Shown here: piece after piece, positions 19,171 to 53,190 of the stretch | How the letters are laid out: each line of letters opens with the position of its first letter | Numbering within the stretch: the first letter of the stretch is position 1 | Source of the DNA: a virus | IMG/VR virus record: IMGVR_UViG_3300016665_000824 | Coordinates: 70,297 to 134,296 of that record | Direction: 5' to 3' (one strand) | DNA: 64,000 nucleotides | Program-made: the position numbers and the translations under genes | Notes under the pieces: generated by a model | Told to the model about the DNA's origin: nothing | Database searches by the model: none | Seen by the model: only the letters and a program-made list of their open reading frames with translations

Positions 19171-19701
19171 ATGCTCTCAAGCGAAGAATACATACGCGAC
19201 AGACAAGACTTCGGTTGCTGGGAAGCCCGTATATTTTACTCCCCAGAATTAGATGCCGTTGTTGCGGCAGGTTTTATGGATGGGTTGATCTTCAACAAGG
19301 AAGAACTCTTCCAGCTAGGCTCATTACTCCTTGATGCCTCAATTAACGTTTCGGGTAAAGACATCTGCCACCTCAATAATCGGACATCGGCGAGAGGTCG
19401 TTCTGACAAGGATTTTTGGCTACAGCGCAAGAATAGATCTGGACTCGTGTATCTAATCAAGGCGATCGGGACTAACTACTACAAAATTGGTAGAACAAAA
19501 GATATTGAGACTAGATTAGAGACCCTGCAAAAGTCATCTCCATTCGACCTCTCGCTGATTCTTGCCATAGAAACATCAGACTCTTTGGCTCTAGAGAGGT
19601 ACTTCCACGATAAGTACAATGATTGTCGAGTTAGGGGTGAGTGGTTTGAGCTAGATGAGTATGCGATCGCTGAATTTATGAGCTACGAGGAGGTCGCGTG
19701 A
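19171..19701 (+). CDS. T5orf172-domain protein (GIY-YIG-like nuclease fold)
   Basis: C-terminal GLVYLIKAIGTNYYKIGRTKDIETRLETLQ ... ERYFHDKY...GEWFEL matches the T5orf172 pattern; start set at first ATG (ORF track starts at GTG 19102). Confidence 0.55.
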   Translation: MLSSEEYIRDRQDFGCWEARIFYSPELDAVVAAGFMDGLIFNKEELFQLGSLLLDASINVSGKDICHLNNRTSARGRSDKDFWLQRKNRSGLVYLIKAIGTNYYKIGRTKDIETRLETLQKSSPFDLSLILAIETSDSLALERYFHDKYNDCRVRGEWFELDEYAIAEFMSYEEVA

Positions 19702-20924
19702 TGAAAGGATACGAACAGACCTGCCCCAAAGTCGAAGCGATCGGGCAAATCAACTTTCACGGCGACGGTGTTTTTACGCCAAACAACTGGTATCACAACA
19801 TCTGTCACAAGAACGGTAAACCCTATCTCGAAGCAATAATTCTTCTTGCGGATATTGTTTCTTGGTATTTGCCCATCTACGAAAGAGATGAAGTCACTGG
19901 CAAGACGATTGGGGTCAGGAAAAAATTCAAGGCAGACAAACTCCAGCGAAACTACGACTCTTTTGCGGACCATTATGGCATGACCAAAGATCAAGCTAGA
20001 AATGCTCTGAAACACCTAGAAAGAGACGGACTCATAGACCTAGAGCTAAGAACAGTCGAAACTTCAGTACAAAAGCTTGGAAATGTTTTGTTTATCGGTG
20101 TTTACCCAGAAAAAATCAAGGATTACACTTTCACCCTCTCGCCAAAAGAACAGACCCCTGTGCTCACAGAAACCGATAGGGGTATCGACAGAAAAGCAGA
20201 GGGGTCTGCACAGAAACAGACAGCACTCCCCACAGAAGCCCAGACAAATACAGATCAATCTACAGATCTTTCTACTGATCAATCTACTAAAAATATAAGA
20301 GCGGATGAATTTTTTGCGATCGCTCCTTCGTCGCAAATCCAAGAAAATTCTTTTCCCGCACAAACAGAAAATCCGAGAATTGAAGAAACCCCAACACCCC
20401 CTACCCCCTCTTCCCCTTCCGCGCCCGAAAATATCGGCAAGGCGATCGCGCCCTCGGTAGCCACCTCAAAACAGGCAGAAGCGTATATGCAGTTTGAGCA
20501 GCGCTTTAGCCAACCAAAACCTCAAAACCGCCACGTACCCAAACTGCTTGTGGAGGCTGGCTATGCAGAATGGCACAACGGCAAACACCCGAACGACTGG
20601 CGCAAATCCTTGATAGATGTTTGCATCCAAAGGAAGAAAAAGCGTGGCGATGAAGCGACTGTAGGTGCAGCCACCGACTTTATTTTTAACGTAATGAAAG
20701 ACTGTATTTCCCTCGGATTCTGGGGTAAGTTCCAAGAGCTTGTTGATCAAGCCCTAAAGCTCGAAGCCGTCGAAGCGATCGCCGCACAACAAAAACAAAT
20801 TGAAGATCAGCGATTCGAGCAACAGCCAGTTGAATCTAACGCCCCCACAATGACTCTTGAACTTCGCAAGCAATATGCTGCCGAATTGAGACGTAAAGCC
20901 AACAACATGAGACTAATTGCTTAA
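19701..20924 (+). CDS. candidate replication initiation / helicase-loader protein
   Basis: 408 aa immediately upstream of and coupled to dnaB (TGATG overlap with previous stop); winged-helix-like N-terminus, low-complexity linker; function inferred from position only. Confidence 0.3.
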   Translation: MKGYEQTCPKVEAIGQINFHGDGVFTPNNWYHNICHKNGKPYLEAIILLADIVSWYLPIYERDEVTGKTIGVRKKFKADKLQRNYDSFADHYGMTKDQARNALKHLERDGLIDLELRTVETSVQKLGNVLFIGVYPEKIKDYTFTLSPKEQTPVLTETDRGIDRKAEGSAQKQTALPTEAQTNTDQSTDLSTDQSTKNIRADEFFAIAPSSQIQENSFPAQTENPRIEETPTPPTPSSPSAPENIGKAIAPSVATSKQAEAYMQFEQRFSQPKPQNRHVPKLLVEAGYAEWHNGKHPNDWRKSLIDVCIQRKKKRGDEATVGAATDFIFNVMKDCISLGFWGKFQELVDQALKLEAVEAIAAQQKQIEDQRFEQQPVESNAPTMTLELRKQYAAELRRKANNMRLIA

Positions 20925-20928
20925 AACT

Positions 20929-22656
20929 ATGAAAGACCCACAACAGATCCAAAGACTCAACGCTCAGATCGAACCTAGCAACGTTGAAGCCGAACAAACG
21001 ATCATTGCGGGGGTTTTTGAAGGTGGAAGCCTTCTTAGCCTAGTCGCCGACGCAATCACACCTGAGATGTTTTTTTCGAGCCTTCTAGGGGCATTTTTTA
21101 GGGCATCGTTGTTTTTGAGAAATAGCGATCGCGACATAAACACCCTAACCTTAGCCGCCGCGCTACAGGAGATGGGTTTTAAAGACTTTTACGGCTTTGA
21201 CAGTATCTCGGCGCTAGTCCACAACACCTATGCCGACATTATGGGCAGCACGTATATTCAAAGTCCAGCCCACTACGAATCTGCCGCCGCCCTAATCCGT
21301 GAAGCCTCCGTAAGGCGAGACCTGATTAAAGCTGGCAGAGCAGCGATCGCCGCAGCCTACGATCAAGAAATATCTGTGCTTGATGCCTGTACTAAAGCTC
21401 AAGATTTGATTGGGGATGCTATGACATCATCTCAGGTTCGTAGTACCGTGTTTGAGGTTGGTACAACCTACACAAACATGTGTGCGGAACTTCTCGATCC
21501 TCAAATTGGAGAGTTCAATCCCGTAATCCCCAGTGGTTATGCGGCGTGGGATGAAATGCTTGAAGGTGGTTTTCGGGGTGCTGAACTCGCGGTTATTGGT
21601 GGAGACTCGGCGATCGGTAAGTCGATGCTCTTGTTTGGTGCGGCATGGAATATGGCGAAATTCCTTTCGGATCAAGGTAGGGTGGGTTATATCGGCTCGA
21701 TGGAAATGTCCACTCGTAGCGTTGTGCATCGCTGGATTGCTTCCGAAGCGCAAGTGGCTTTATCTCGGATGCGTCGCCGAGAATTAAGCGAAGCCGATTG
21801 CGAAAGGATTATGAAGGCATCTAGCGCTGGCGAAATGTTGAATAACCTTGTAATTGACGAGGACAACAAGGCTACTATCCCCCAAATGCTTAACCGAGCC
21901 AAAGAATTTGCACGTAAACATGCTAGAAAATATGGCGGTAGCGGCGAGCTTGGCTTTATGGTTATCGACAACATCAAGATCGCCGAAAAAGGTGGTGACG
22001 ATTTCAACTTGGTTAACCGATACCTCAAAGATCTCAAGGGGATTGCAAAGGATTACAACATCCCGATAATCTCTTTGTCTCAGCTAACTAGAGAATCCCT
22101 GTTAAAAAGTTCTGACAAACGCCCTACTGTTGAGGGGTTGTATGGCGGCAAAGCGATTGAAGAAAATGCTGACGACATTTTTGGCTTGTATCGAGGTGTT
22201 AAGTACGACGATTTCTCTATCCCCACAAACCGAGCTGAGATTATTCGTCTGAAAGGTCGAAACTCAGACCAGTCAAAGGAAAATAGAACGATTTTGCTTG
22301 GCTTCAATGGCGCTCTTTCTACTTTTTACGACCTTGGCGAACCAAAACTAGCCCAAAAATCGGAGCAAAAACAAGCGATCGCCACACCAGTCACCGAAGA
22401 CATTAACTACTTCGGCGATCTCGAAGATGGATGTCAAGTTGTTCTGGATATTTCCTACTCAACACCTGAAGAAAAATCGGAGATCAGCGATCGTATCAAC
22501 GCAAAGCAGCTACCAAAGCCCAATGAAGTCTGTGGAGTAACCCGCCTAAGCGTTTGCGAAACTCCTGAAGTAGGTAAATTTGGGGTTGCCCACCTAATAC
22601 TGCCCGACAACTCCGAAATGAAGGTTGCAGTAGACGAATTGCGCCGAGTCAGTTAG
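20929..22656 (+). CDS. dnaB: replicative DNA helicase DnaB
   Basis: DnaB-like N-terminal domain (NVEAEQTIIAGVF), Walker A GGDSAIGKS, RecA-like core; start set at ATG 20929 (ORF track TTG 20917). Confidence 0.75.
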   Translation: MKDPQQIQRLNAQIEPSNVEAEQTIIAGVFEGGSLLSLVADAITPEMFFSSLLGAFFRASLFLRNSDRDINTLTLAAALQEMGFKDFYGFDSISALVHNTYADIMGSTYIQSPAHYESAAALIREASVRRDLIKAGRAAIAAAYDQEISVLDACTKAQDLIGDAMTSSQVRSTVFEVGTTYTNMCAELLDPQIGEFNPVIPSGYAAWDEMLEGGFRGAELAVIGGDSAIGKSMLLFGAAWNMAKFLSDQGRVGYIGSMEMSTRSVVHRWIASEAQVALSRMRRRELSEADCERIMKASSAGEMLNNLVIDEDNKATIPQMLNRAKEFARKHARKYGGSGELGFMVIDNIKIAEKGGDDFNLVNRYLKDLKGIAKDYNIPIISLSQLTRESLLKSSDKRPTVEGLYGGKAIEENADDIFGLYRGVKYDDFSIPTNRAEIIRLKGRNSDQSKENRTILLGFNGALSTFYDLGEPKLAQKSEQKQAIATPVTEDINYFGDLEDGCQVVLDISYSTPEEKSEISDRINAKQLPKPNEVCGVTRLSVCETPEVGKFGVAHLILPDNSEMKVAVDELRRVS

Positions 22657-24793: not shown

Positions 24794-25527
24794 TTGAAAG
24801 GCAAGTTAAACTGCTGGTTCTAGACAAAGACGGTACACTCGTTCGCCCCAAATCTGGCAATACCTTCGTCCAGCACCCCGAAGATCAGGAGCTAATCGAA
24901 GGAGTGGCTGAAGCTATTCAGAGGTATGTTGCTGATGGATGGCAGTTGGCGATCGCGTCAAATCAGGGTGGATGCGAAGTGCGATGGTGTCACCCCGCCG
25001 AATTACCTGTAGGTAGTTACTGCAATGTAGATAACATTGCCATCAAGGTTGAATACCTTCAAGACACTGGTGAGTTTATACTCGTAAATGGGCATCACCC
25101 ACTACCAAAAACTAGGTTTGCGAAGTTCCAATACAAGACTCTCGGCATAGCGATCGCAGAGATGCAGTATGCGATGAAGCTGATCGGCATTCAGTATCAT
25201 GGTCTATTCTGTCCAGACATGCAAGGGAATGAATGCTACATGACTTCGGACTTTGCTGCTCCGCCATTACACAAGGTTGATAGATACAAACACTTAATAG
25301 GCTCGTTCCGTAAGCCCAGTGGTGGAATGTTGCTAGCATTAAAGCAGCACTTTGAAACACATCTTGATGATGTTGATCGGCTGCTCATGATCGGCGATCG
25401 TCCCGAAGATTTGGGATCGGCTCAAGCCGCAGGATTCGATTTTGTGTGGGCAGAAGACTGGCGAAATAACGAACTAGACAAAGTTCTGCCCTACAGGAGC
25501 GAAGAATGGATCGCTCTGAACTCCTAA
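24790..25527 (+). CDS. HAD-superfamily (subfamily IIIA-like) phosphatase
   Basis: Motif I LDKDGTL, motif II ASNQGG, conserved Lys in FRKPSGGML, motif IV MIGDRPED; same fold as polynucleotide 3'-phosphatases and GmhB. Confidence 0.6.
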   Translation: MIERQVKLLVLDKDGTLVRPKSGNTFVQHPEDQELIEGVAEAIQRYVADGWQLAIASNQGGCEVRWCHPAELPVGSYCNVDNIAIKVEYLQDTGEFILVNGHHPLPKTRFAKFQYKTLGIAIAEMQYAMKLIGIQYHGLFCPDMQGNECYMTSDFAAPPLHKVDRYKHLIGSFRKPSGGMLLALKQHFETHLDDVDRLLMIGDRPEDLGSAQAAGFDFVWAEDWRNNELDKVLPYRSEEWIALNS

Positions 25528-25805
25528 CTCGCATCCAAGTCCAGCGAATGTGGCTAGAGGACATCCGTGGCAAGTCTCTAGCTCCTCAGTTGGAGATTTG
25601 GAAGAACAAATACCTTGCCGCAAATAATCTCACGCATCTGGATGCTCAGGGGCTGGAGCAACTGCTTAAGGCTCTTGAGTCTATGACTAAGGCTACGGTG
25701 AGTAACGCCGAGGAATTGGATAGTCAGATGCGCGAGAGGATTAAGAGTGGCGACTACTCGATTCGATTTGTTGAAAAGATTGTTGAAGATGATGAATATT
25801 TTTAG
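25506..25805 (+). CDS. hypothetical protein
   Basis: 99-aa ORF; 3' end carries 29-bp repeat R1. Confidence 0.35.
   Translation: MDRSELLTRIQVQRMWLEDIRGKSLAPQLEIWKNKYLAANNLTHLDAQGLEQLLKALESMTKATVSNAEELDSQMRERIKSGDYSIRFVEKIVEDDEYF
25776..25804. repeat. 29-bp direct repeat R1 copy a (aagattgttgaagatgatgaatattttta)
   Basis: Identical copy at 26321-26349. Confidence 0.7.
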
Positions 25806-35663: not shown

Positions 35664-36119
35664 ATGAACAAACTTATATTGTCGCCCCTGACGCTGTTGG
35701 AGGGGAGAGCATCTAACACTAAAGACTCTACCCGATTTGATGGCGTGGGGTCATTCCATGAAGCCTATGGCGATCGCGCAGTTCGCCAGATTCACATCCT
35801 TGCATTTGGCAAGACGGCTGAGCGATTGAAGGATATCGTGATCGGTAGCAAGCTGGAAACCTCTGGTGAATACCGTAGCGAGACAAGAGATCTTGGTAAT
35901 GGCAGAAAAGAATATCTGAATATATTCTTGATCAACAAAATCACTAGGGTTGGCAAACCATCTGAGGTTAGCGAAGCCATTGAAGTCGAACAAGAGGCGA
36001 TCGCGCCAGTAGTTGAGGCTAAGAAAGTGGCGCAGAAGACAAAGGTTGCTCCTGTTTATACACCACCCGCAGTAACAGACAGTACTGCCGACATAGATCT
36101 AGGGGACATCCCCTTTTAA
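35664..36119 (+). CDS. SSB-like protein (divergent OB-fold paralogue)
   Basis: Ends with the SSB-type C-terminal tail ...DLGDIPF; sits immediately upstream of canonical ssb. Confidence 0.4.
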   Translation: MNKLILSPLTLLEGRASNTKDSTRFDGVGSFHEAYGDRAVRQIHILAFGKTAERLKDIVIGSKLETSGEYRSETRDLGNGRKEYLNIFLINKITRVGKPSEVSEAIEVEQEAIAPVVEAKKVAQKTKVAPVYTPPAVTDSTADIDLGDIPF

Positions 36120-36133
36120 TTCAGGAGAATATA

Positions 36134-36496
36134 ATGATAAACGAAGCTATTTTTGTTGGCAGAGTAGGCAGAAATCCCGATATCAAATATTTTGAATCGG
36201 GCAAGTGTAACGCGACGTTATCGATCGCTGTTAATCGTAAAGGCAAAGACCTCCCTCCCGACTGGGTGAACCTTGTTGCATGGGAGAAGACCGCCGAAGT
36301 CTTTGCTCAGTACGTTCGTAAGGGCGACCTTATCGAGGTTGAAGCTAATCTAAAATTTGAGACATGGGAAGATCGCCAGACAGGGGAGCCTAGATCTAAA
36401 GCCGTGTTCCAAGTCGAGAGGTTAGGCTTGCTAGGTAAATCAAGAGGCAGTAGCCAGAATGATGCCGACTACGGAGACTATGACGACGACTTCTAG
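36134..36496 (+). CDS. ssb: single-stranded DNA-binding protein
   Basis: OB-fold N-terminus (AIFVGRVGRNPDIKYFESGK...), acidic tail ...DYGDYDDDF. Confidence 0.8.
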   Translation: MINEAIFVGRVGRNPDIKYFESGKCNATLSIAVNRKGKDLPPDWVNLVAWEKTAEVFAQYVRKGDLIEVEANLKFETWEDRQTGEPRSKAVFQVERLGLLGKSRGSSQNDADYGDYDDDF

Positions 36497-36960: not shown

Positions 36961-37183
36961 AAAGTCTGTCTACTGGCTAGATGAAGAATACTATCTTTAT
37001 GAACTGGAGGAGTGTGACTCTGACGAATATTTCGCCACTCTAGAAATAGACGAAGACTTTCTTCAAAAGTATCGTGACATCAAAAAGGAGTGTCTTGAGA
37101 TGCAAAACCAAATTTCAAGAATGATCTGCAAGCAACATCCGCAGGAATGCCCTATCGTGAATTACAAGCCCGAAGATGAATAA
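36953..37183 (+). CDS. hypothetical acidic protein
   Basis: 76-aa ORF. Confidence 0.35.
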   Translation: MSKKSVYWLDEEYYLYELEECDSDEYFATLEIDEDFLQKYRDIKKECLEMQNQISRMICKQHPQECPIVNYKPEDE

Positions 37184-38372
37184 AATTATTTGGAAAGGCG
37201 ATCGCTTTGAATGCAGTAGCCCCGAACTAGAAGGCGCAAAATGGCAAGTCCTAGCTTCTAACCATTTAAAGCTAAGGGATTTCATGGTTTGCTACGATTT
37301 GCGTCTCGACGAGTTTATATGCCACGCTGATCGCAGTATCACAATTCTTAAACTCAAGGAGGATCTGTCTTTTGCGGAGTTTCCGATCGCCGATGAAGGC
37401 GCAGGTTTTAATATTTGCTTTCACTTGGGAGCTTATGCGATCGCGTCAATGAATCTCGGTCAAAAGCTTGAGATCTGCGCGTACTCATTTAAGCCCTTAC
37501 TGCATCCAGTACTGTTTCAAGGTTTGGGTAAATGGTTTCGCGATCGCAGATCTTCTACTATTGATAGGAAATGTCCTTATTTTAGTGGCAGTTACGAGCT
37601 TAAGTGCGCGGTCAATCCTTCGTTGCCTTGTAATGAATGTGCCGAGGCTTCTGCAAGCTTCAGAGAGAATCTATTCGTATGGACTGCCGCCGATTTAGGC
37701 GATCGCATCCCTAGTGGCTTTGATTGGTTTAAAGCCATTGAGGATACCGTTAATCAAGGTCGAGGTTTCGACGAGATGAGACAAGCTTTTTGGGCAGCAC
37801 AAGAATCAATGCGATCGCAGATGGTAGAGATTCCTCGTATGGTCATAGGCGTAGATGAGGGTTCTGGGCAGGATACTACTGCGATCGCAATGGGACTCAC
37901 TACTGAAGATGGAACTATTCTTACTGACGGTCTTGAGATCCGAGCAAATATTTCCGAGGCTGAGGCAAAAATAGAGGTAGCGATTACCAAACTTCAAGTC
38001 GCGGCTCATAAACTTCTCGATCAAAGATTGTTGGATGTATGTCAGCACGGACTAAGCGATCACATTACACCTCTACCGCCCAGACTTGAGGAGGAACGTC
38101 AACGGTATACGGAGGAGAGGAAACGGGCGAGGATCTGGTCTCACTTTGAAGGAGTAGTGGTATATCCTCAGCCCCACAGAATGCCAACGCCTCAAGAACT
38201 TTATGGCTTGTCAACGAATACCGAGGAAGACCTCTCTAGTCGGCTAGGACTATCCCCAGAAGAGATGGCGGAGCATAAGGCTAACGGGACATTGTTTGCT
38301 GAATTGCATAGGCGATGGCTACTAAAAAGAAACAATAGGCTTGATATTCACGATGAAAATATTCAAGGATAA
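37176..38372 (+). CDS. hypothetical protein
   Basis: 398-aa ORF, Cys-containing N-terminal half; no motif recognised. Confidence 0.45.
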   Translation: MNKIIWKGDRFECSSPELEGAKWQVLASNHLKLRDFMVCYDLRLDEFICHADRSITILKLKEDLSFAEFPIADEGAGFNICFHLGAYAIASMNLGQKLEICAYSFKPLLHPVLFQGLGKWFRDRRSSTIDRKCPYFSGSYELKCAVNPSLPCNECAEASASFRENLFVWTAADLGDRIPSGFDWFKAIEDTVNQGRGFDEMRQAFWAAQESMRSQMVEIPRMVIGVDEGSGQDTTAIAMGLTTEDGTILTDGLEIRANISEAEAKIEVAITKLQVAAHKLLDQRLLDVCQHGLSDHITPLPPRLEEERQRYTEERKRARIWSHFEGVVVYPQPHRMPTPQELYGLSTNTEEDLSSRLGLSPEEMAEHKANGTLFAELHRRWLLKRNNRLDIHDENIQG

Positions 38373-38864: not shown

Positions 38865-39090
38865 AGAAGATGCTGAAGAATGCTTAGCTAAAAATCTAAA
38901 GGTTGTAACGCGCTATGGGCTAGGCGAAATTATTTCGATCGCCAAGAAAAGCGACCCAGTACAATGGGCAGAGATAAAACAACTTGACCGCGATCGCCAG
39001 TTTGAAGTACCCAGATGTCTATACCTATCGAGCATCAGCAGATATACTGCTGTTTTGGTTGAGCAAAGTGAAGTAGAAAGTATTTTTTAA
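38857..39090 (+). CDS. hypothetical protein
   Basis: ORF 38683..39090; start at ATG 38857 overlapping previous stop; last plus-strand gene before packaging block. Confidence 0.35.
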   Translation: MTREDAEECLAKNLKVVTRYGLGEIISIAKKSDPVQWAEIKQLDRDRQFEVPRCLYLSSISRYTAVLVEQSEVESIF

Positions 39091-40715
39091 TATCCCGATC
39101 GCCACACGATATCCATCAGAGTTTCCCTACCAGCGAAAGCAATAACACAAGCGTCACTACAATTAGGCGATCGCCCCAATCTACGAATAGTTTTAGAAGC
39201 CTTATCCTCAATGCGTAACTTCGCGTTGGGGGTTTCTTCGTAGTAGACGTTACTAAAGTCCGTCATCAGATATTCTTCCTCCTCTAGTGGTGCGATCGCC
39301 GATATATCGTCATTGCCATCGGCAGCAGCAAAGAATTCACGCAGTTTCCAATACCATTGAGCCTTCCAGTTCATATATAGCTGATCGAAGTCTTGGTTGG
39401 CATCTTCTTCTACCGCATCACCAAAGTTAGCTGCCCATACTTGCGCTCCCCATCCGCGATCGAGCAAGTAAGCTAATGTACCCGAACCAACACCCGTGGC
39501 ATCTATACCCACTTTACAGTTAGGATAGACGCGCAGATATTCTTCCTCAATGATTTGGGCAATACGAATAACGTCTTTGCGATCGCCTACACAGGGGATA
39601 ACCCTCGCGATCTTAAGCACATTACCTTGAAACCCACAAATAGCATGGTCATCACTCATGGAGCCGACATCTACACCAAAACTCCAAGGTGTATTGACAT
39701 TGATAATTGTTTCCCACAGATCGGGATTGAGATCGTATCTTGCCCGTGCCGCAACAAAGTAGCTCTTGGGAAGTATAGACGCGCCACCCGATTCCGAGAA
39801 CAAGCCCTCAATACGAGTCAGCCAGAAAGGTGAGTTTTCACCCTTCTTGATACGCATCCTTTCAATCCATGCGATCGAGATAGCACCCTTGATTACATCT
39901 CTGGGTAAGTCAGCATCCCATTCGGATTGAGGTTTGATTGGCTCGTCGCGAGAGTTGGGGTCATTAGGCGATCGCTTAATCTTTGCCTCGACCTCTGGTT
40001 TAAGTCGGTGCATCCCATCAAGATGCAGGTCGTAAGCCCATTCAACATTTGGGTGCTGCCATGCACTGCATCTGATATGGCTGAGGTTGCAAGCAGTATA
40101 GAAAGGGGAGTCACATCTGGTTGGGTTGCCAATACGAAGAATCTTATTTTGTTCCCCTGTAAGACAGCTTTCTAGGGAGGTATCTACGGCAGGACTGATA
40201 CCACAGGCTTCATCTTCAATAATAAGCATTCGTTCTGAGTGGATACCCTGCGCTGCCGAATCATTATGGTCACTACTGGAAAAGCCGTATGCCTCAACCC
40301 CTTCTTCGAGGAATACCCGCAGCTCATTTCTCTTGCCGCCGAGCTTCTTCTTGTGTTTGTCGTATAGACGACGGACAACGCCCCAAAGCAACTTAGTAAC
40401 CTGTCGGTGAGTTGGTGCGGTAGAGATAACAAGCGATCGCACAGCAAATACCGCCCAGAGGACTAACCACCCACTCAAGTATGTCTTGCCTAAACCGTGG
40501 CAGGCGGCAACATTGGTAACACGCTTGTTCTTGACCGATTCAAGAATGGTGATCTGTTGTCCCGTGATAACAATATCGGGTTCAAGGTATCGAATAAATC
40601 CTTCGGGGTCGTCGGCAAATCGGGTTAAGTCTTCACCGATCGCCACATCCCCCTCATTACCTGATACCAGCTTAATCTGCGTATTACAGCTCGTCTTCAG
40701 TCTCGCAAAGCCCAC
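39087..40715 (-). CDS. terminase large subunit
   Basis: Walker A ACHGLGKT, Walker B LIIEDEA, C-terminal RNase-H-like nuclease segment (FGVDVGSMSDD ... VGIDATGVGSG). Confidence 0.7.
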   Translation of the reverse strand: MGFARLKTSCNTQIKLVSGNEGDVAIGEDLTRFADDPEGFIRYLEPDIVITGQQITILESVKNKRVTNVAACHGLGKTYLSGWLVLWAVFAVRSLVISTAPTHRQVTKLLWGVVRRLYDKHKKKLGGKRNELRVFLEEGVEAYGFSSSDHNDSAAQGIHSERMLIIEDEACGISPAVDTSLESCLTGEQNKILRIGNPTRCDSPFYTACNLSHIRCSAWQHPNVEWAYDLHLDGMHRLKPEVEAKIKRSPNDPNSRDEPIKPQSEWDADLPRDVIKGAISIAWIERMRIKKGENSPFWLTRIEGLFSESGGASILPKSYFVAARARYDLNPDLWETIINVNTPWSFGVDVGSMSDDHAICGFQGNVLKIARVIPCVGDRKDVIRIAQIIEEEYLRVYPNCKVGIDATGVGSGTLAYLLDRGWGAQVWAANFGDAVEEDANQDFDQLYMNWKAQWYWKLREFFAAADGNDDISAIAPLEEEEYLMTDFSNVYYEETPNAKLRIEDKASKTIRRLGRSPNCSDACVIAFAGRETLMDIVWRSGY

Positions 40716-43375: not shown

Positions 43376-44035
43376 CTAGCCTCCGTAATAGTCAGCACAT
43401 AAATACTCAAGCGATCGCCCTATTTTAACCGAGTAATTCTCACCCTCGATACTAGCTTCCTGCATCACCTTTTCTAAAGCCGCTCTCACGATCTCCACAG
43501 CGTCCGTAGGAACACTAAAGATCATTCGAGTGAATTCATCACTGGCTTCGGGAGGAGCTTTCTCCTTGGCGGCTTCGAGCATCTTGGCGAGACTTTCCTT
43601 TGTGTGAGGTGTGGGGAGATAAGCGCGATCGCCTAATTTCTTTTCAACCCTTTTGAGGGAAACACTTAGCTTAACTGGATCTTCTTCGCCGTGAGCCTTG
43701 GATGCGGAGGTGTATAACTCGTATTCTTCATCCTGTAAGCCCGTAATGACATTGCAATAGTAGTATTCCAGCCCCTCTAAGTATCTATGTTCGCCATTTA
43801 CAATCTCGTACTCACCCTCAATATGCGGATGGGGGCGAACAACAAGCGGCTCAATTTGGGTAAACATCTTTAAGCTCTCCCCCAAAGCCTTTTGGTGGTG
43901 AGGCTGCAAAACGTTTGAGTTCCAAGAGTTCGGATGTATCTTTGAGGTCTCAATCTTTACATTCCACTCTTTCTGGATTCGTTGCGCGATCGGTAGCGAA
44001 TAATCAATCTTCTTCGTCATCTTCATCCTCTTCAA
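43376..44035 (-). CDS. ParB-like nuclease-domain protein
   Basis: N-terminal segment (IHPNSW ... QIEPLVVRP ... YEIVNGEHRY) resembles the ParB N-terminal domain. Confidence 0.4.
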   Translation of the reverse strand: MKRMKMTKKIDYSLPIAQRIQKEWNVKIETSKIHPNSWNSNVLQPHHQKALGESLKMFTQIEPLVVRPHPHIEGEYEIVNGEHRYLEGLEYYYCNVITGLQDEEYELYTSASKAHGEEDPVKLSVSLKRVEKKLGDRAYLPTPHTKESLAKMLEAAKEKAPPEASDEFTRMIFSVPTDAVEIVRAALEKVMQEASIEGENYSVKIGRSLEYLCADYYGG

Positions 44036-45185
44036 ATTTCTTGGGCATAATTACCGATGTCAGGAATGATTCCTGCTCTACTCCGTCGCAAGGGCTAACC
44101 ATTACTAGCGGTCGAGTTCCCTCGTATACCTCCAGCTTAATGTGTTTTGATTTTGTGGTATCCAAAATATGCTGCAAGTATTTTATGTTGAACCGAGCAG
44201 CAAATCCTGACACGCCAACATCGCATGGCAGTGATTCTTCCACCCTGCCAACACCCGCAACTTCAGCAACAAGTATCAACTCATCACCCTTGATAGTGAT
44301 GTCAACCAAGTAGCTAGTAATCTCACCCTCACACAACGAAGCAACGGTCTTCAAGCTGGTAATCAGCTCTTTGCGATCGCACTTTACCGACCCAGACATC
44401 TCTTTGAGCCGTACGTTAACGAGACTCGATCGTACTGGTGGAAATGGTTGAGCAATTAGTGGTGAGATGATGGTTAGCGCGTGGCTATAAAACCAAATAT
44501 GGTTACTGGCTAAACGCACTTCAGTCTCTGCTTGGGTGATGTGCAGAACCTCTTTGAGCGATCGCGCAGGTATTGTCGCATTAATCAGCTTTTCACTCAA
44601 TTCGGGGTGGACAAATCTGATACAAGATCCTCGACAGCCATCGGTTGCTGTGAAGGATAGGAATCTCGTCGGGTCATCTTCACCATCAATGATTTCGTCG
44701 TACTCCGCTAGGTTCACACCCGTAAGTGCAGGCTTAGTTTCGTCGTTAGATACGAGCTTTAAGGTAGCCACAATGCCGTCCCGCAGTATATCTGTGGCGA
44801 TCGCAAAGGTGTCAGCATCAGTAATCTTGGGGGTGCTTGGGTATGAGTCGGCGCTGATAGTTGGTAGTGAGATTTTACTCTTACCACACTTAATAGTGGC
44901 AATACCTTCGGATACCTTGATTAAAACCTCTTCACCGTTGAGGGACTTTACCGCGTCGGAGAATCGCTTGGCATTGAGCGCGATCGCGCCCTCTTCTTTG
45001 ATACTATCGGAATCCTCTCTGCGGATTAGCCAAAGCTTTAGGTCGGTAGCTGTGATGGTGAAGAGATCGTTCTTCGCTTCGAGTCGAAAGTTTGTTAAGA
45101 TTTCCTGCGGTGGAGACTTAGAAACAGCTTCCTTTACTGCGTCCACCATCGATTTCAACGTTTTGAGAGGGAGTGTTAGTTGCAT
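44004..45185 (-). CDS. dnaN: DNA polymerase III beta sliding clamp
   Basis: 393 aa; N-terminus (LKTLKSMVDAV ... FTITATDLKLWL) matches DnaN pattern and length. Confidence 0.75.
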   Translation of the reverse strand: MQLTLPLKTLKSMVDAVKEAVSKSPPQEILTNFRLEAKNDLFTITATDLKLWLIRREDSDSIKEEGAIALNAKRFSDAVKSLNGEEVLIKVSEGIATIKCGKSKISLPTISADSYPSTPKITDADTFAIATDILRDGIVATLKLVSNDETKPALTGVNLAEYDEIIDGEDDPTRFLSFTATDGCRGSCIRFVHPELSEKLINATIPARSLKEVLHITQAETEVRLASNHIWFYSHALTIISPLIAQPFPPVRSSLVNVRLKEMSGSVKCDRKELITSLKTVASLCEGEITSYLVDITIKGDELILVAEVAGVGRVEESLPCDVGVSGFAARFNIKYLQHILDTTKSKHIKLEVYEGTRPLVMVSPCDGVEQESFLTSVIMPKKFEEDEDDEED

Positions 45186-48018: not shown

Positions 48019-49362
48019 TTAAGCCGTTCTTGGAAACAGCACTAGGTTGTCTTTACCGATCGCGAGGATTCTATCAAGAGCTTCCTCCACCGATTCTTCA
48101 GTGACTTCCGACTTCTCGGAATCAAACCTGAAGCCGTCCAGATGCTTGAGATCTGGCATTAATGCAATCTTGGGTATACCCATTGTGGTTAGCAATACTG
48201 GGCGATCGCCTTGCTTCTTAGCCATTGCGATCGCATCTCCAAGCATCCCCGCAAGAGATAATCTTTGCTGCTTATTAGGGAATAGTTTTGCATCGGCAAG
48301 AGCTGCTTCAATGGGCCTATAGCCAACATCATTCTTTTCACCCATGCGACCTAGCGCAAGAACTGAGAAGCAGCCTCGCACTGGGTCGCTGAAGCCAATT
48401 TGAGTACAAAGGTGAGTTTGCGCGACAAGAATAAGGCGAACACACATCTCTCTTCCCATAGCAACTATCTGATTGAGCATTCCAAAAAATTCTGCCTCTC
48501 TTTTTGAGGAAGCAATCATGTCTTGTAGTACCCACCACTCGTCAAGGATTAGATATTGAGGGGCAAAGACTGGGCGCTTCCCGCCTTCTCGTAATATCTT
48601 TTGTACTGCGCGAATCCTATTCTTCATGATCTTAAAGGCGCGGCTAATCTGCTCGGAAGCAGCATCAAGCTGCTCGTCTTGCGTGTCTTGATCTAAGTAG
48701 GTGACGATGCCATCTTCGCTTTGAAGCCCTAGCCAGTCCGTTGTCTTTGGATCGACAATACCGAATTTAGAAGCGGGGTTGATCTTCTTTATTCGCTGGA
48801 TAAGCGCCTTTAGCAAGGTAGACTTACCCGCGCCAGACTTGGTGGCAATCAGTACATGAAGATCTGTGTGAGCCACCTCGCCGATAATATCTCCAGTAAA
48901 CACTCCTTTCGAGTACTCGGTAACAGCTATAGGCTCTTCGTCCGTATAAGGCTCGTCATCAAACTGAGGAGGTCTAACTGCTGCTACTGGTTGAGGGCGA
49001 GGCGCGGATGTGCGCTGAACATTGGTATTGCGAATAATTACTGGGGCAGCAACTTGCTGTTGAGCGTGAGGCAGAGCTACTGGAGTCTCCTCGCCTTTGG
49101 GTTGTTCATCTTCAAGGTTGCTTGCCAAGCCGACACCTGACGCGATCGCCATGCCAAGAAAAGCCAAAGTAGCAATAGGATTATTGTAGGAACTGGGCTG
49201 AAGTACAGCCTGTTGCCCATGATCGTTAACACTTGAGTCTACCCTCCTGTATTCGTCTGCGGACTTAAATAGGACATCTCTCGGTAATACCGACCATCCA
49301 GCAGCTCCTAGCCATGCTGCACAGCTAATGCCTAATAGTAGGTTTACTGTTGACTTCTTCAT
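48019..49362 (-). CDS. membrane-anchored P-loop ATPase, FtsK/SpoIIIE/VirD4-like
   Basis: N-terminal TM segments, Pro/Gln-rich linker, Walker A TKSGAGKST, Walker B YLILDEWW. Confidence 0.55.
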   Translation of the reverse strand: MKKSTVNLLLGISCAAWLGAAGWSVLPRDVLFKSADEYRRVDSSVNDHGQQAVLQPSSYNNPIATLAFLGMAIASGVGLASNLEDEQPKGEETPVALPHAQQQVAAPVIIRNTNVQRTSAPRPQPVAAVRPPQFDDEPYTDEEPIAVTEYSKGVFTGDIIGEVAHTDLHVLIATKSGAGKSTLLKALIQRIKKINPASKFGIVDPKTTDWLGLQSEDGIVTYLDQDTQDEQLDAASEQISRAFKIMKNRIRAVQKILREGGKRPVFAPQYLILDEWWVLQDMIASSKREAEFFGMLNQIVAMGREMCVRLILVAQTHLCTQIGFSDPVRGCFSVLALGRMGEKNDVGYRPIEAALADAKLFPNKQQRLSLAGMLGDAIAMAKKQGDRPVLLTTMGIPKIALMPDLKHLDGFRFDSEKSEVTEESVEEALDRILAIGKDNLVLFPRTA

Positions 49363-51709: not shown

Positions 51710-51916
51710 ATGCTTAAGTACAAACAAGCTGAAGTGGCGATCGCTCCCAACGGTTCGTGCGAAATTCTTTGGGGAAATAACCACCCCACAATGGCTGGAA
51801 TGAAGCAAGATGTACATCTGCCTGAAGAGATCAAGGGCCACCTTGTTGCAGTAAATCAGTACGTCAGTCAGTACATTGATATCGTGACGGAGCCAGCAGA
51901 TGTCTTGGACTTATAG
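51710..51916 (+). CDS. hypothetical protein
   Basis: 68-aa ORF. Confidence 0.35.
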   Translation: MLKYKQAEVAIAPNGSCEILWGNNHPTMAGMKQDVHLPEEIKGHLVAVNQYVSQYIDIVTEPADVLDL

Positions 51917-52145
51917 AGTCTGCCGTGATTTTGAACCTAATGGGGAAGAGTTCCTCAGTATTCGCGAATGCTGGGTTAGAGAGGGCGCTTCCCCTCCCTA
52001 TAAAGACGAGGACTATACTTCTTGGTCTGCCGAGCCTATTTCTGTGGTCGGAGATAATCTTGAAGAGCTGGCATGGAAGCTAGAGAAGATGGCGATCGCT
52101 CTGAAGAAAAACATTCTTGATATACCACGCGATCGCCCTGAGTAA
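51900..52145 (+). CDS. hypothetical protein
   Basis: 81-aa ORF. Confidence 0.35.
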   Translation: MSWTYRVCRDFEPNGEEFLSIRECWVREGASPPYKDEDYTSWSAEPISVVGDNLEELAWKLEKMAIALKKNILDIPRDRPE

Positions 52146-52188: not shown

Positions 52189-52241
52189 ACACAAGCAACC
52201 CGCCAAGCCTCTCTACGATGCTGAAACTGGCGGGTTGCTTG
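52189..52241. terminator. stem-loop between convergent genes
   Basis: cacaagcaacccgcc ... ggcgggttgcttgtg, ~14-bp stem with ~23-nt loop, followed by T-rich tgttgtg. Confidence 0.45.
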
Positions 52242-52249
52242 TGTTGTGA

Positions 52250-52633
52250 TTATACCTGAGTGGCGAAGTATTTAGAGGCGATCGCGATAAGCCTTAATTG
52301 TTCGCTGGGATAAATCCCTGAAGGTCCAACTGCCTCATATAGTCTCTTTAGCACCTCAGCTTTGCCGTACTCGGAAATCAGTAAAGCCCATCCAAGTACA
52401 TGTAGCTGGAACAAAAGCTCTTTCTGGAGCCGTTCCTTATGAGCTGTACTCTTACCCTTAAACGTCGGATGTCGAACCTCTCGTACTCGCAGCTTGTTTT
52501 TCGGGAAGGAAATGTAGAGACTTGAGGTTAGGTATTCATCTATCAGAACGAGAAGTTCTTGGCGATCTTTTTGTAAGAGTTCTGCTTGCATAGACATACT
52601 CAAAAACCTTTGTATTTCTGCCAAGAAGTCCAA
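52250..52633 (-). CDS. hypothetical protein
   Basis: 127-aa ORF. Confidence 0.4.
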   Translation of the reverse strand: MDFLAEIQRFLSMSMQAELLQKDRQELLVLIDEYLTSSLYISFPKNKLRVREVRHPTFKGKSTAHKERLQKELLFQLHVLGWALLISEYGKAEVLKRLYEAVGPSGIYPSEQLRLIAIASKYFATQV

Positions 52634-53190
52634 AGGTTTTTTACTTCAATACCCTTTTTCTTGGCATATTTCACACAGTTAGCCGTACCACCTCTCGACC
52701 CGTCCCATAGTGCGAGCATTCTGTTAGCCCGATCGCACATCCACTCATTCCTAATCTGCATCGCCGCAGCCGAGTATGGCACATCAGGGCAATGCACGGC
52801 GATCGCCTTGTCGCAGATATACTGCCATTGGTCTTGCTGCGACTGACTCCACTTAAATGAGTGGTTTAAGCAAGGTACTGCGGCGACGAGAGGTATTTCT
52901 AATTCGATCGCTGCTAATGCGATCGCGGTGTCCCATCCCAAAGCCATGCCAGAAATAACAATTACAGGTCTTTCTTGCATCAAGGCATTCTTAGCAAGGG
53001 TAGTAAGTCTGGGCAGGGTTAAGGATTCGTATTGACTCCACGTACTTTGCAGCTTCTGGGGGCGATGTCCTGTGCCAGCAACGACTAATTGCCCGTCGGT
53101 AAGATCGAGTTTAATGTCGGAGGAGTCTGATTCGCTACCTATAGGAATATTAACTTGGAGCCAGTGATCGGTGATTGATATTGTTTTCAT
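52600..53190 (-). CDS. SLOG-superfamily protein (DUF1273/YpsA- or DprA-like Rossmann fold)
   Basis: VVAGTGHRP, VIVISGMALGWDTAIALAA and GSRGGTANCV motifs. Confidence 0.4.
   Translation of the reverse strand: MKTISITDHWLQVNIPIGSESDSSDIKLDLTDGQLVVAGTGHRPQKLQSTWSQYESLTLPRLTTLAKNALMQERPVIVISGMALGWDTAIALAAIELEIPLVAAVPCLNHSFKWSQSQQDQWQYICDKAIAVHCPDVPYSAAAMQIRNEWMCDRANRMLALWDGSRGGTANCVKYAKKKGIEVKNLWTSWQKYKGF

What the first reader, a model, noticed from the sequence alone, without database searches (positions are those of the whole stretch)
35664..36496. Tandem SSB genes: a divergent paralogue upstream of canonical ssb
ORF 35664-36119 ends in the SSB-type acidic tail (...DLGDIPF) but has a divergent body. 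The next gene is a canonical SSB ending ...DYDDDF. Two SSB-like proteins with different tails could recruit different partners, or one could act as an inhibitor or decoy of host SSB-interacting proteins.
Basis: partly seen in the sequence, partly recalled or inferred. Interest (0 to 1): 0.45.

Follow-up and report, generated by a model that had tools for sequence, protein, structure and literature searches.

The report
Cyanophage tandem pair of SSB genes
An uncultured cyanobacterial phage carries two adjacent single-stranded-DNA-binding genes, a very diverged copy that keeps the host-type "DDIPF" docking tail and a standard short copy with a different tail; it is a modest curiosity, not a new kind of system.

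Summary
ORF A (35664-36119, 151 aa) ends in DLGDIPF. ORF B (36134-36496, 120 aa) ends in DYDDDF and is a clear Pfam SSB.

A matches no curated family above threshold, but it is a real, very diverged SSB relative.
- AlphaFold2 gives a five-strand OB barrel followed by a roughly 55-residue disordered tail.
- Profile-profile comparison with SSBs gives 95% probability.
- All 20 intact family members end in IPF, although the linker before it varies.
- dN/dS is about 0.04-0.17.

The A-then-B order recurs in all six related metagenomic loci. One of them has an extra ORF between the two genes.

The window is an uncultured cyanosiphovirus. Cyanobacteria themselves carry two SSB classes: a long Ycf41/All4779 type that always ends in D(D/E)IPF, and a short type. 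B belongs to the short class, and A copies the architecture and tip of the long class.

The most likely function of A is a second ssDNA-binding adaptor that recruits host SSB-interacting proteins. That function was not tested. I rate it a new member of a known kind, of modest interest.

The parts
35664..36119 (+). Gene A: diverged SSB-superfamily protein, 151 aa (OB domain, disordered linker, host-type C-terminal tip)
35664..35957 (+). A, residues 1-98: OB-fold core. Strands at 9-18, 23-32, 40-48, helix at 50-56, strands at 63-76 and 82-96. It is basic (pI 9.75) and has no Trp.
   Evidence: The most conserved part of the family is here, with an invariant MNKL..SPLTLL N-terminus and an A-F-G-K-x-A-E motif.
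35958..36098 (+). A, residues 99-145: disordered linker rich in A, V, E, P and K
   Evidence: pLDDT is 39-59. The sequence varies across the family.
36036..36068 (+). A, residues 125-135: conserved motif KTKVAPVYTPP inside the otherwise variable linker; function unexplained
   Evidence: T126, K127, V128, A129, P130, V131 and P135 are nearly invariant, and Y132 is invariant.
36099..36116 (+). A, residues 146-151: C-terminal tip LGDIPF (family consensus D-[DS]-I-P-F), the canonical bacterial and cyanobacterial SSB-Ct type
   Evidence: I149, P150 and F151 are invariant in 20 of 20 homologues. All 119 full-length cyanobacterial long SSBs examined end in D[DE]IPF-type tips.
36123..36127 (+). AGGAG ribosome-binding site for gene B, in the 14-nt spacer between A and B
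   Evidence: Read directly from the sequence.
36134..36496 (+). Gene B: canonical short SSB, 120 aa (OB core at residues 1-104, 16-residue tail ending DYGDYDDDF)
   Evidence: PF00436 E 2.6e-23, best NCBIfam hit NF005674/PRK07459 at 1.4e-39, PHROG 44. AlphaFold2 pLDDT 82.5 with residues 106-120 disordered. The nearest cellular relatives are short SSBs of Cyanobacteriota. dN/dS is 0.02-0.07.

Best explanation
The window is part of an uncultured cyanobacterial siphovirus. Inside a long plus-strand replication and nucleotide-metabolism operon, it encodes two SSB-superfamily proteins in tandem.

B is the phage's ordinary ssDNA-coating protein. It is a member of the short SSB class typical of Cyanobacteriota, with an OB core and a roughly 16-residue acidic/aromatic tail.

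A is a second, very diverged SSB homologue. It keeps the complete SSB architecture: a basic OB fold, a roughly 50-residue disordered linker, and the canonical C-terminal tip D-(D/S)-I-P-F. The same tip ends the host-type long cyanobacterial SSB (Ycf41/All4779). The phage pair therefore mirrors the two-class SSB set of its hosts.

Proposed mechanism (inferred, not shown):
- A binds phage ssDNA or ssDNA-containing intermediates through its OB domain. It would use a partly remodelled surface that is more basic and less aromatic.
- A's tip docks host SSB-interacting proteins, that is repair, recombination and restart enzymes that recognise the ...DDIPF tip. This brings them to phage DNA or competes with host SSB for them.
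- B, with its different tip, coats ssDNA and serves other partners, possibly phage-encoded ones such as the primase, DnaB helicase or clamp.

Shown here: the gene pair, the fold, remote homology, tip conservation, purifying selection, synteny, and identity of A's tip with the host tip.

Inferred: DNA binding by A, its oligomeric state, and which partners each tip binds.
For: Fold
- The AlphaFold2 model of A shows b1-b2-b3-helix-b4-b5 followed by a disordered tail. B has the same element order.
- Foldseek against PDB returns almost only SSB and PriB at the top, with E from 2.6e-4 and target-normalised TM 0.56-0.70.
- The BFVD top hits are phage SSBs.

Homology
- hhalign of the A family against SSBs gives 94.9% probability and E 4.4e-8 over A residues 37-104.
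- A profile search of 1.84 billion representatives finds one outside SSB-like protein, P0023, at E 3.9e-4.
- Three independent sub-threshold hits all point to SSB or PriB models.

Real, constrained gene
- There are 21 homologues with an invariant IPF end.
- dN/dS of the OB region is 0.04-0.16 with saturated dS.
- The OB domain has pI 9.75.

Synteny
- A is followed by B in the window and in L001, L002, L004, L005, L006 and L007.

Host mirror
- 119 of 119 full-length cyanobacterial long SSBs end in D[DE]IPF. That family is Ycf41/3koj.
- All4779 has a tail described as nearly identical to that of E. coli SSB, and both SSB classes occur across cyanobacteria (PMC3976300).
- B's nearest cellular relatives are 111-122-aa SSBs of Cyanobacteriota, including Spirulina at 53% identity.

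Phage context
- The window encodes a portal, large terminase, primase, DnaD-like initiator, DnaB helicase, beta clamp, RusA, MazG, ThyX and dCTP deaminase.
- The HIP1 octamer occurs 186 times against 0.65 expected.

Precedent
- A phage SSB-like protein with a host-type FDDDIPF tip has been linked to the host ExoI pathway (bioRxiv 10.64898/2026.04.29.721553).
Against: - No experiment or complex prediction shows that A binds ssDNA or any partner.
- A lacks Trp entirely. In the hhalign register, the positions equivalent to E. coli W54 and W88 are Q/E42 and R/K75. Only the F60 equivalent (F48) is kept (plus the B-to-E. coli register taken from my own knowledge of the EcoSSB sequence). The classical base-stacking surface is therefore not conserved.
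- A is below threshold for every curated SSB model and gives no HMMER hit to any PDB SSB sequence.
- The alignment behind the model is shallow, with 21 close sequences and a mean pLDDT of 70.
- The identity of the host, and hence its actual SSB tips, is inferred from HIP1 density and distant phage relatives, not observed.
- The partners of the two tips are pure inference.
Confidence: 0.55

Rival explanations
1. A is a decoy or inhibitor. It does not coat DNA. It presents a host-type SSB tip, possibly on an oligomeric scaffold, to titrate host SSB-interacting enzymes such as nucleases, helicases or recombination mediators away from host SSB or from phage DNA.
For: - A's tip is identical in type to the host long-SSB tip.
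- Two of the three aromatic stacking positions covered by the alignment are lost, and A has no Trp.
- The phage already has a canonical SSB, B.
- For the phage SSB-like protein Bas52_0087, whose tip is FDDDIPF, competition with host ExoI has been proposed.
Against: - A decoy needs only the tail, yet the OB core is the most conserved part of A. Its dN/dS is 0.04-0.16, its N-terminus is invariant, and the A-F-G-K-x-A-E motif is kept.
- The core is basic, with pI 9.75, as expected for a nucleic-acid binder.
- The lysine equivalent to E. coli K62 is kept (K50).
Confidence: 0.2
2. A and B assemble into one hetero-oligomeric SSB, as an SSB-type dimer or tetramer of mixed subunits. The complex would carry two kinds of tails on a single ssDNA-binding particle.
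For: - The genes are adjacent, 14 nt apart, on the same strand, and co-conserved in every locus with enough flank.
- Both models have the same OB topology.
- A keeps an SSB-like N-terminal strand (MNKLIL...). In SSBs this strand forms the dimer interface; that point is from my own knowledge.
Against: - In L004 a 155-aa ORF sits between A and B, so tight coupling is not obligatory.
- No multimer prediction could be run.
- Anabaena SSB-like proteins were reported as monomers or dimers (PMC3976300).
- The two genes evolve at different rates.
Confidence: 0.12
3. A is a PriB-like primosome or helicase-loading accessory protein. It would be an SSB-derived OB protein that works with the phage DnaD-like initiator and DnaB helicase rather than as a general SSB.
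For: - There is a weak hit to TIGR04418 PriB_gamma (E 0.064).
- Replacement of Trp by basic residues is PriB-like; this point is from my own knowledge.
- The phage encodes a DnaD-like initiator, a DnaB helicase and a primase.
Against: - The PriB score is 13.4 bits against a cutoff of 72.
- PriB has no disordered tail or SSB tip (PMC8509808 abstract), whereas A's tail and tip are conserved.
- A lies next to ssb, RusA and MazG, about 13 kb from the helicase genes.
Confidence: 0.1
4. The resemblance is coincidental. On this reading A is an unrelated small protein that happens to end in IPF.
For: There is no above-threshold hit in Pfam, PHROGs or NCBIfam.
Against: Several independent lines all point the same way:
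- fold;
- profile-profile homology;
- an invariant tip in 20 of 20 homologues;
- conserved adjacency to ssb.
Confidence: 0.02

Closest known systems
Bacterial homotetrameric SSB (E. coli SSB type; Pfam PF00436, TIGR00621)
   Same: B is a member, at 82.5 bits against a cutoff of 26. A shares the OB topology, a disordered linker and the canonical ...D-D-I-P-F tip, and aligns to SSBs at 94.9% hhalign probability. The A-F-G-K-x-A-E motif is in register with SSB's (V/L)-(F/W)-G-K-x-A-E.
   Different: A scores below every curated threshold. It has no Trp and keeps only the F60-equivalent aromatic residue. B has a very short linker and ends in DDDF without the Pro-Phe.
Cyanobacterial dual SSB set: long Ycf41/All4779 type plus short Alr0088/Alr7579 type (Kirti et al. 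2014, PMC3976300; PDB 3koj)
   Same: The host long class has an OB domain, a P/A-rich linker and a D(D/E)IPF end (119 of 119). This matches A's architecture and tip. B is closest to the short class of Cyanobacteriota (41-53% identity, 111-122 aa, short acidic/aromatic tails such as ...SDYDD). The phage therefore carries one protein of each architectural class.
   Different: A is not detectably derived from Ycf41. hhalign gives only 67% probability, lower than against generic SSBs, and HMMER finds nothing. A's linker is richer in E, V and K. B ends in F, whereas most host short SSBs do not.
Phage SSB-like protein Bas52_0087 (trigger of the DRT10 defence system; bioRxiv 10.64898/2026.04.29.721553)
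   Same: It is a phage-encoded, sequence-divergent SSB-like protein recognised by predicted structure. It carries a conserved host-type C-terminal tip (FDDDIPF) and is proposed to interface with host SSB-interacting enzymes.
   Different: Bas52_0087 has two OB folds and comes from a coliphage. A has one OB fold, comes from a cyanophage, and is paired with a canonical ssb. No link to a defence system is known for A.
PriB (primosomal protein N)
   Same: PriB is an SSB-derived single OB fold with reduced aromatic and increased basic DNA-binding surface. It is among A's best structural matches.
   Different: PriB lacks the linker and tip. A fails the PriB model threshold by a wide margin.
Paralogous SSB pairs in bacteria (B. 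subtilis and S. aureus SsbA/SsbB; Streptomyces SsbA/SsbB)
   Same: Two SSB paralogues in one genome, with different tails and a division of labour: one has a full tail for partner recruitment, and the other is short.
   Different: Those pairs are cellular, both members are readily recognisable as PF00436, and they are not usually adjacent. Here the member with the full tail is the divergent one.
T7 gp2.5 (own knowledge, not tested here)
   Same: It is a phage SSB whose acidic tail ends in an essential Phe without the Pro-Phe motif. That tail binds phage replisome proteins. B's ...DDDF end looks similar.
   Different: gp2.5 belongs to a different OB family. B's tail is better explained as a variant of the cyanobacterial short-SSB tail.

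Membership tests
Bacterial SSB family (PF00436 / TIGR00621), protein B | Profile match above the curated threshold | tested here: met
   PF00436 scores 82.5 bits against a cutoff of 26, and TIGR00621 scores 88.5 against 53.95. The best PDB SSB hit has E 6e-15.
Bacterial SSB family (PF00436 / TIGR00621), protein A | Profile match above the curated threshold | tested here: not met
   A has no PF00436 hit. PF22657 SSB_1 scores 13.5 bits against 27, and PRK07274 scores 12.6 against 169. There is no PHROG hit and no PDB sequence hit.
Bacterial SSB family, protein A | SSB-type OB fold (b1-b2-b3-helix-b4-b5) | tested here: met
Bacterial SSB family, protein A | Detectable remote homology to SSB profiles | tested here: met
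   hhalign gives 94.9% probability and E 4.4e-8. hmmsearch finds the SSB-like protein P0023 at E 3.9e-4 among 1.84 billion representatives.
Bacterial SSB family, protein A | Disordered linker plus acidic C-terminal tip ending in hydrophobic-Pro-Phe | tested here: met
   Residues 97-151 have pLDDT below 60. D-[DS]-I-P-F is conserved, and IPF is invariant in 20 of 20 homologues.
Bacterial SSB family, protein B | Acidic tip ending in hydrophobic-Pro-Phe | tested here: not met
   B ends in DYGDYDDDF, with no Pro, after a linker of about 16 residues.
Bacterial SSB family, protein A | Conserved aromatic base-stacking residues (E. coli W40, W54, F60, W88) | tested here: not met
   In the hhalign register, W54 maps to Q/E42, F60 to F48 (kept) and W88 to R/K75. 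A has no Trp. The W40 equivalent lies outside the aligned region; the invariant Y35 in loop L23 is a possible substitute, but this is inference.
Bacterial SSB family, proteins A and B | ssDNA binding and homo-oligomerisation | not testable with these tools
   This needs biochemistry or multimer prediction.
PriB (TIGR04418) | Profile match above threshold, and absence of a C-terminal tail | tested here: not met
   A scores 13.4 bits against a cutoff of 72. A also has a conserved 55-residue tail with an SSB tip.
Cyanobacterial long SSB (Ycf41/All4779), protein A | Architecture: OB domain, long disordered linker, D(D/E)IPF end | tested here: met
Cyanobacterial long SSB (Ycf41/All4779), protein A | Sequence-level membership | tested here: inconclusive
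   hhalign gives 67% probability and E 5e-5, weaker than against generic SSBs. The A profile does not hit the 3koj sequence.
Cyanobacterial short SSB (NCBIfam NF005674 / PRK07459), protein B | Equivalog-level profile score | tested here: not met
   This is B's best NCBIfam hit, at 134.8 bits, but it is below the cutoff of 161. The nearest genomic relatives are nevertheless Cyanobacteriota short SSBs at 41-53% identity. B is therefore a relative, not an equivalog.

The most novel reading that the evidence does not exclude
The phage deliberately reproduces the poorly understood two-class SSB system of cyanobacteria, using functionally specialised proteins. A would be a remodelled, Trp-free OB protein that carries the host long-SSB tip and an additional conserved linker motif (KTKVAPVYTPP). 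It would hijack or out-compete the host SSB interactome on phage DNA. B, possibly in a mixed A/B oligomer, would serve the phage's own primase, helicase and clamp. This would give a natural system for dissecting which functions depend on which SSB tip in cyanobacteria.
Probability: 0.2. Interest if true: 0.55.

Novelty: new member of a known kind. Interest (0 to 1): 0.3.

Why it matters
SSB tips are the hub through which bacteria recruit replication, repair and recombination enzymes. Phages that carry their own tip-bearing SSB-like proteins can redirect or perturb that hub, and such proteins have recently been implicated as triggers of anti-phage defence. This locus adds a sequence family unknown to Pfam, PHROGs and NCBIfam. 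It has 21 metagenomic members and is absent from deposited phages, IMG/VR and GTDB genomes.

The family shows how far an SSB core can drift while the tip stays invariant. It also shows a phage carrying one protein of each of the two cyanobacterial SSB architectures. In practice, A should be annotated as an "SSB-like OB-fold protein with SSB-Ct tip" rather than as a hypothetical protein. It is not a new mechanism class.

Tried and rejected
Searches that found nothing
- A relatives were sought in INPHARED phages (tblastn), GTDB species genomes, IMG/VR and the JGI metagenome contig collection. None was found, so the family is known only from the 21 proteins.
- A profile search of 1.84 billion representatives found only the family's own cluster, the SSB-like protein P0023, and a spurious repeat protein, P0022. 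P0022 matches only through FGETAERLRDI repeats.
- A HMMER search of PDB sequences with A or with its profile gave nothing meaningful.
- The afdb50 fold library was unavailable.

Ideas rejected
- I tested whether A's conserved linker motif mimics a general [YF]xP motif of host SSB linkers. It does not: 96 of 119 host linkers have none.
- I tested whether A is a recent derivative of host Ycf41. This is not supported: hhalign gives 67%, lower than against generic SSBs.
- I tested whether cultured distant relatives share the pair. Aphanizomenon phage CL131 and Planktothrix phage PaV-LD encode no SSB of either type.
- I looked for a single-strand annealing protein or exonuclease next to the pair, as in many siphovirus recombination modules. 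No PHROG or Pfam hit was found for the flanking ORFs.
- The promoter and terminator scan around the pair gave no more sites than shuffled sequence.
- An ungapped identity check of A against canonical SSBs stayed below 15% over the first 100 residues. The visible N-terminal resemblance (MNKLIL...) is therefore not used as evidence.

Full report
**1. Observation**

The two ORFs are exactly as described.
- A is at 35664-36119 on the + strand. It is 151 aa and ends ...DIDLGDIPF.
- B is at 36134-36496 on the + strand. It is 120 aa and ends ...DADYGDYDDDF. It starts 14 nt after A's stop, behind an AGGAG sequence.

B is an unambiguous SSB. Pfam PF00436 gives E 2.6e-23, TIGR00621 gives 5.8e-25, and PHROG 44 gives 3.4e-30. 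The best NCBIfam hit is the 121-residue model NF005674/PRK07459 at 1.4e-39.

A has only sub-threshold hits, but all of them are to SSB or PriB models: PF22657 SSB_1 at 0.084, TIGR04418 PriB at 0.064, and PRK07274 SSB at 0.081. It has no PHROG hit.

Of 723 six-frame ORFs of at least 40 aa in the window, only three end in an acidic stretch plus Phe. Two of them are A and B.

**2. Is A real, and is the tip meaningful?**

A has 21 homologues among 5.8 billion proteins. All are metagenomic, at 61-100% identity. Twenty are intact.
- M1-L4, S7-L12 and G14 at the N-terminus are invariant, as are many core residues.
- I149, P150 and F151 are invariant. The 10-15 residues before the tip and much of the linker vary freely.
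- A second island of conservation, KTKVAPVY(T/S)PP at residues 125-135, sits inside the linker. I could not explain it.
- Pairwise dN/dS between loci is 0.04-0.16 for A's OB region and 0.02-0.07 for B, with saturated dS. Both are constrained coding genes.

**3. Fold and homology of A**

AlphaFold2 gives strands at 9-18, 23-32 and 40-48, a helix at 50-56, and strands at 63-76 and 82-96. The alignment had 21 sequences, mean pLDDT is 70, and the core blocks score 82-89. Residues 97-151 are disordered. The element order is the same as in the model of B.

Structure searches agree.
- Foldseek against PDB returns almost exclusively bacterial SSBs and PriB (E from 2.6e-4, target-normalised TM 0.56-0.70).
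- The BFVD viral library returns phage SSBs (E about 1e-5).

Sequence-based methods also support a link.
- Profile-profile comparison of the A family with an SSB alignment gives 94.9% probability and E 4.4e-8 over A residues 37-104.
- An exhaustive profile search of 1.84 billion representatives finds one protein outside the family with real similarity. P0023 (E 3.9e-4) looks like a short SSB and ends in NDDLVF.

**4. How A differs from a standard SSB**

In the hhalign register, and using the offset-10 register between B and E. coli SSB (my own knowledge of the EcoSSB sequence):
- E. coli W54 corresponds to A Q/E42.
- F60 corresponds to A F48, which is kept.
- K62 corresponds to A K50, which is kept.
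- W88 corresponds to A R/K75.

A has no tryptophan, but its OB domain is basic (pI 9.75). The DNA-binding face is thus remodelled towards a more basic, less aromatic surface, as in PriB. Whether A still binds ssDNA cannot be decided here.

**5. Context**

The window is phage DNA. It encodes:
- a tail fibre and a portal (3257-4912);
- a large terminase (39087-40715);
- a primase (14579-16336);
- a DnaD-like initiator (19698-20924) and a DnaB helicase (20917-22656);
- a beta sliding clamp (44004-45185);
- two DNA methyltransferases, a dCTP deaminase, ThyX, RusA and MazG.

The HIP1 octamer GCGATCGC occurs 186 times in 64 kb against 0.65 expected, which is a cyanobacterial signature. The portal is about 30% identical to those of the cyanosiphoviruses S-CBS4, Aphanizomenon phage CL131 and Planktothrix phage PaV-LD.

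The order RusA - (MazG) - A - B recurs in all six related loci recovered (L001, L002, L004-L007). In L004 an extra 155-aa ORF lies between A and B.

A is absent from all deposited phage genomes, IMG/VR and GTDB genomes. CL131 and PaV-LD encode no SSB of either kind. The pair is therefore specific to this uncultured lineage.

**6. Comparison with host SSBs**

Kirti et al. (PMC3976300) showed that Anabaena has two short, apparently tail-less SSBs (Alr0088, Alr7579). It also has a low-similarity long one, All4779, with an OB domain, a P-rich linker and a tail nearly identical to that of E. coli SSB. Homologues of both classes occur across cyanobacteria.

It is the Ycf41/3koj family (E 2.5e-25). 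All 119 full-length members examined end in D(D/E)IPF-type tips. A's tip (family consensus DDIPF or DSIPF) is therefore the host long-SSB tip.

B's nearest cellular relatives are 111-122-residue SSBs of Cyanobacteriota. Spirulina is closest at 53% identity, and Melainabacteria and Obscuribacterales are at about 42%. Their tails are short acidic/aromatic stubs such as ...SDYDD...QDFA and ...SDFR. B's DYGDYDDDF is a variant of this, kept in its phage homologues.

The phage therefore carries one protein of each host architectural class. A is not demonstrably derived from Ycf41: hhalign gives 67%, weaker than against generic SSBs. Its origin is open. It could be a tandem duplicate of B that diverged and gained a long tail, or an independent acquisition.

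**7. Mechanism**

The most likely reading (confidence about 0.55 for the mechanism, about 0.85-0.9 for the identity) is as follows. B is the bulk ssDNA-coating protein. A is a second ssDNA-binding adaptor whose host-type tip recruits host SSB-interacting proteins, or competes for them.

A recent preprint gives a precedent. It describes a divergent phage SSB-like protein with an FDDDIPF tip that is required to trigger the DRT10 defence system and is proposed to interfere with host ExoI (10.64898/2026.04.29.721553).

Three rivals remain.
- A pure decoy (0.2). This is disfavoured by the strongly conserved, basic OB core.
- An A/B hetero-oligomer (0.12). This could not be tested.
- A PriB-like primosome accessory (0.1). 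The PriB model score is far below threshold, and PriB has no tail.

**8. Novelty and verdict**

A defines a small family without Pfam, PHROG or NCBIfam membership. By fold, architecture and tip it is still an SSB-superfamily protein. Paralogous SSB pairs and tip-bearing phage SSB-like proteins are already known. I therefore rate it a new member of a known kind, of modest interest (0.3). Three details are worth recording: the canonical tip sits on the divergent body, the pair mirrors the host's two SSB classes, and the linker contains an unexplained conserved motif.

Noticed in passing
window 52199-52235 (+): There is an Rfam abiF RNA motif (RF03085) at 46.9 bits against a gathering score of 37, E 1.7e-5. 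It lies in an intergenic gap between + ORF 51900-52145 and - ORF 52250-52633. No abiF-like gene is evident downstream.
   Followed up: partly
L003 6001-6453 (ENA ERZ19025685, GROS21-1 scaffold_5602), protein P0020: This is an in-frame fusion of gene A nt 1-319 to gene B nt 233-end. The product has A's OB core plus B's last strand and DYGDYDDDF tail. It sits 17 nt from the contig end, so it is either a natural deletion variant or an assembly artefact.
   Followed up: partly
window 36036-36068 (A residues 125-135): The motif KTKVAPVY(T/S)PP is nearly invariant inside an otherwise variable disordered linker. It is not a general feature of host SSB linkers, and its function is unknown.
   Followed up: partly
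L004 4404-4871 (Logan SRR21892046): In one related phage a 155-aa ORF with no Pfam hit is inserted between the A and B genes.
   Followed up: no
window 25506-25805 (+): This 99-aa ORF is the only other ORF in the window that ends in an acidic stretch plus Phe (...IVEDDEYF). It lies just after a PNK3P/HAD phosphatase gene and has no family assignment.
   Followed up: no
whole window: The HIP1 octamer GCGATCGC occurs 186 times in 64 kb against 0.65 expected from base composition. GC content is 45.4%.
   Followed up: yes
window 36101-36114 (+): The small hairpin AGGGGACATCCCCT, followed by TTTAATTC, overlaps the last codons of A (G-D-I-P-F-stop). It is terminator-like, but the scan found no more such sites than in shuffled sequence.
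   Followed up: no
window 52600-53190 (-) and 48019-49362 (-), 43376-44035 (-): Accessory genes lie in the minus-strand block. They are a protein with a GTP-binding-domain PHROG match and a weak DprA-like match (PHROG 289 at 3e-19, PHROG 768 at 3e-4), an FtsK/SpoIIIE-like ATPase, and a ParB-like protein next to the phage beta clamp.
   Followed up: no
L002 889-2070: The related 140-kb contig carries an IS605 OrfB/TnpB (Cas12f-like) gene upstream of the methylase - dCTP deaminase - ThyX - RusA - MazG - A - B block.
   Followed up: no
window 37176-38372 (+): This 398-aa protein downstream of the SSB pair has a short match to DUF6464 (25.3 bits against a cutoff of 25). It is conserved in related loci as a 398-aa ORF.
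   Followed up: no
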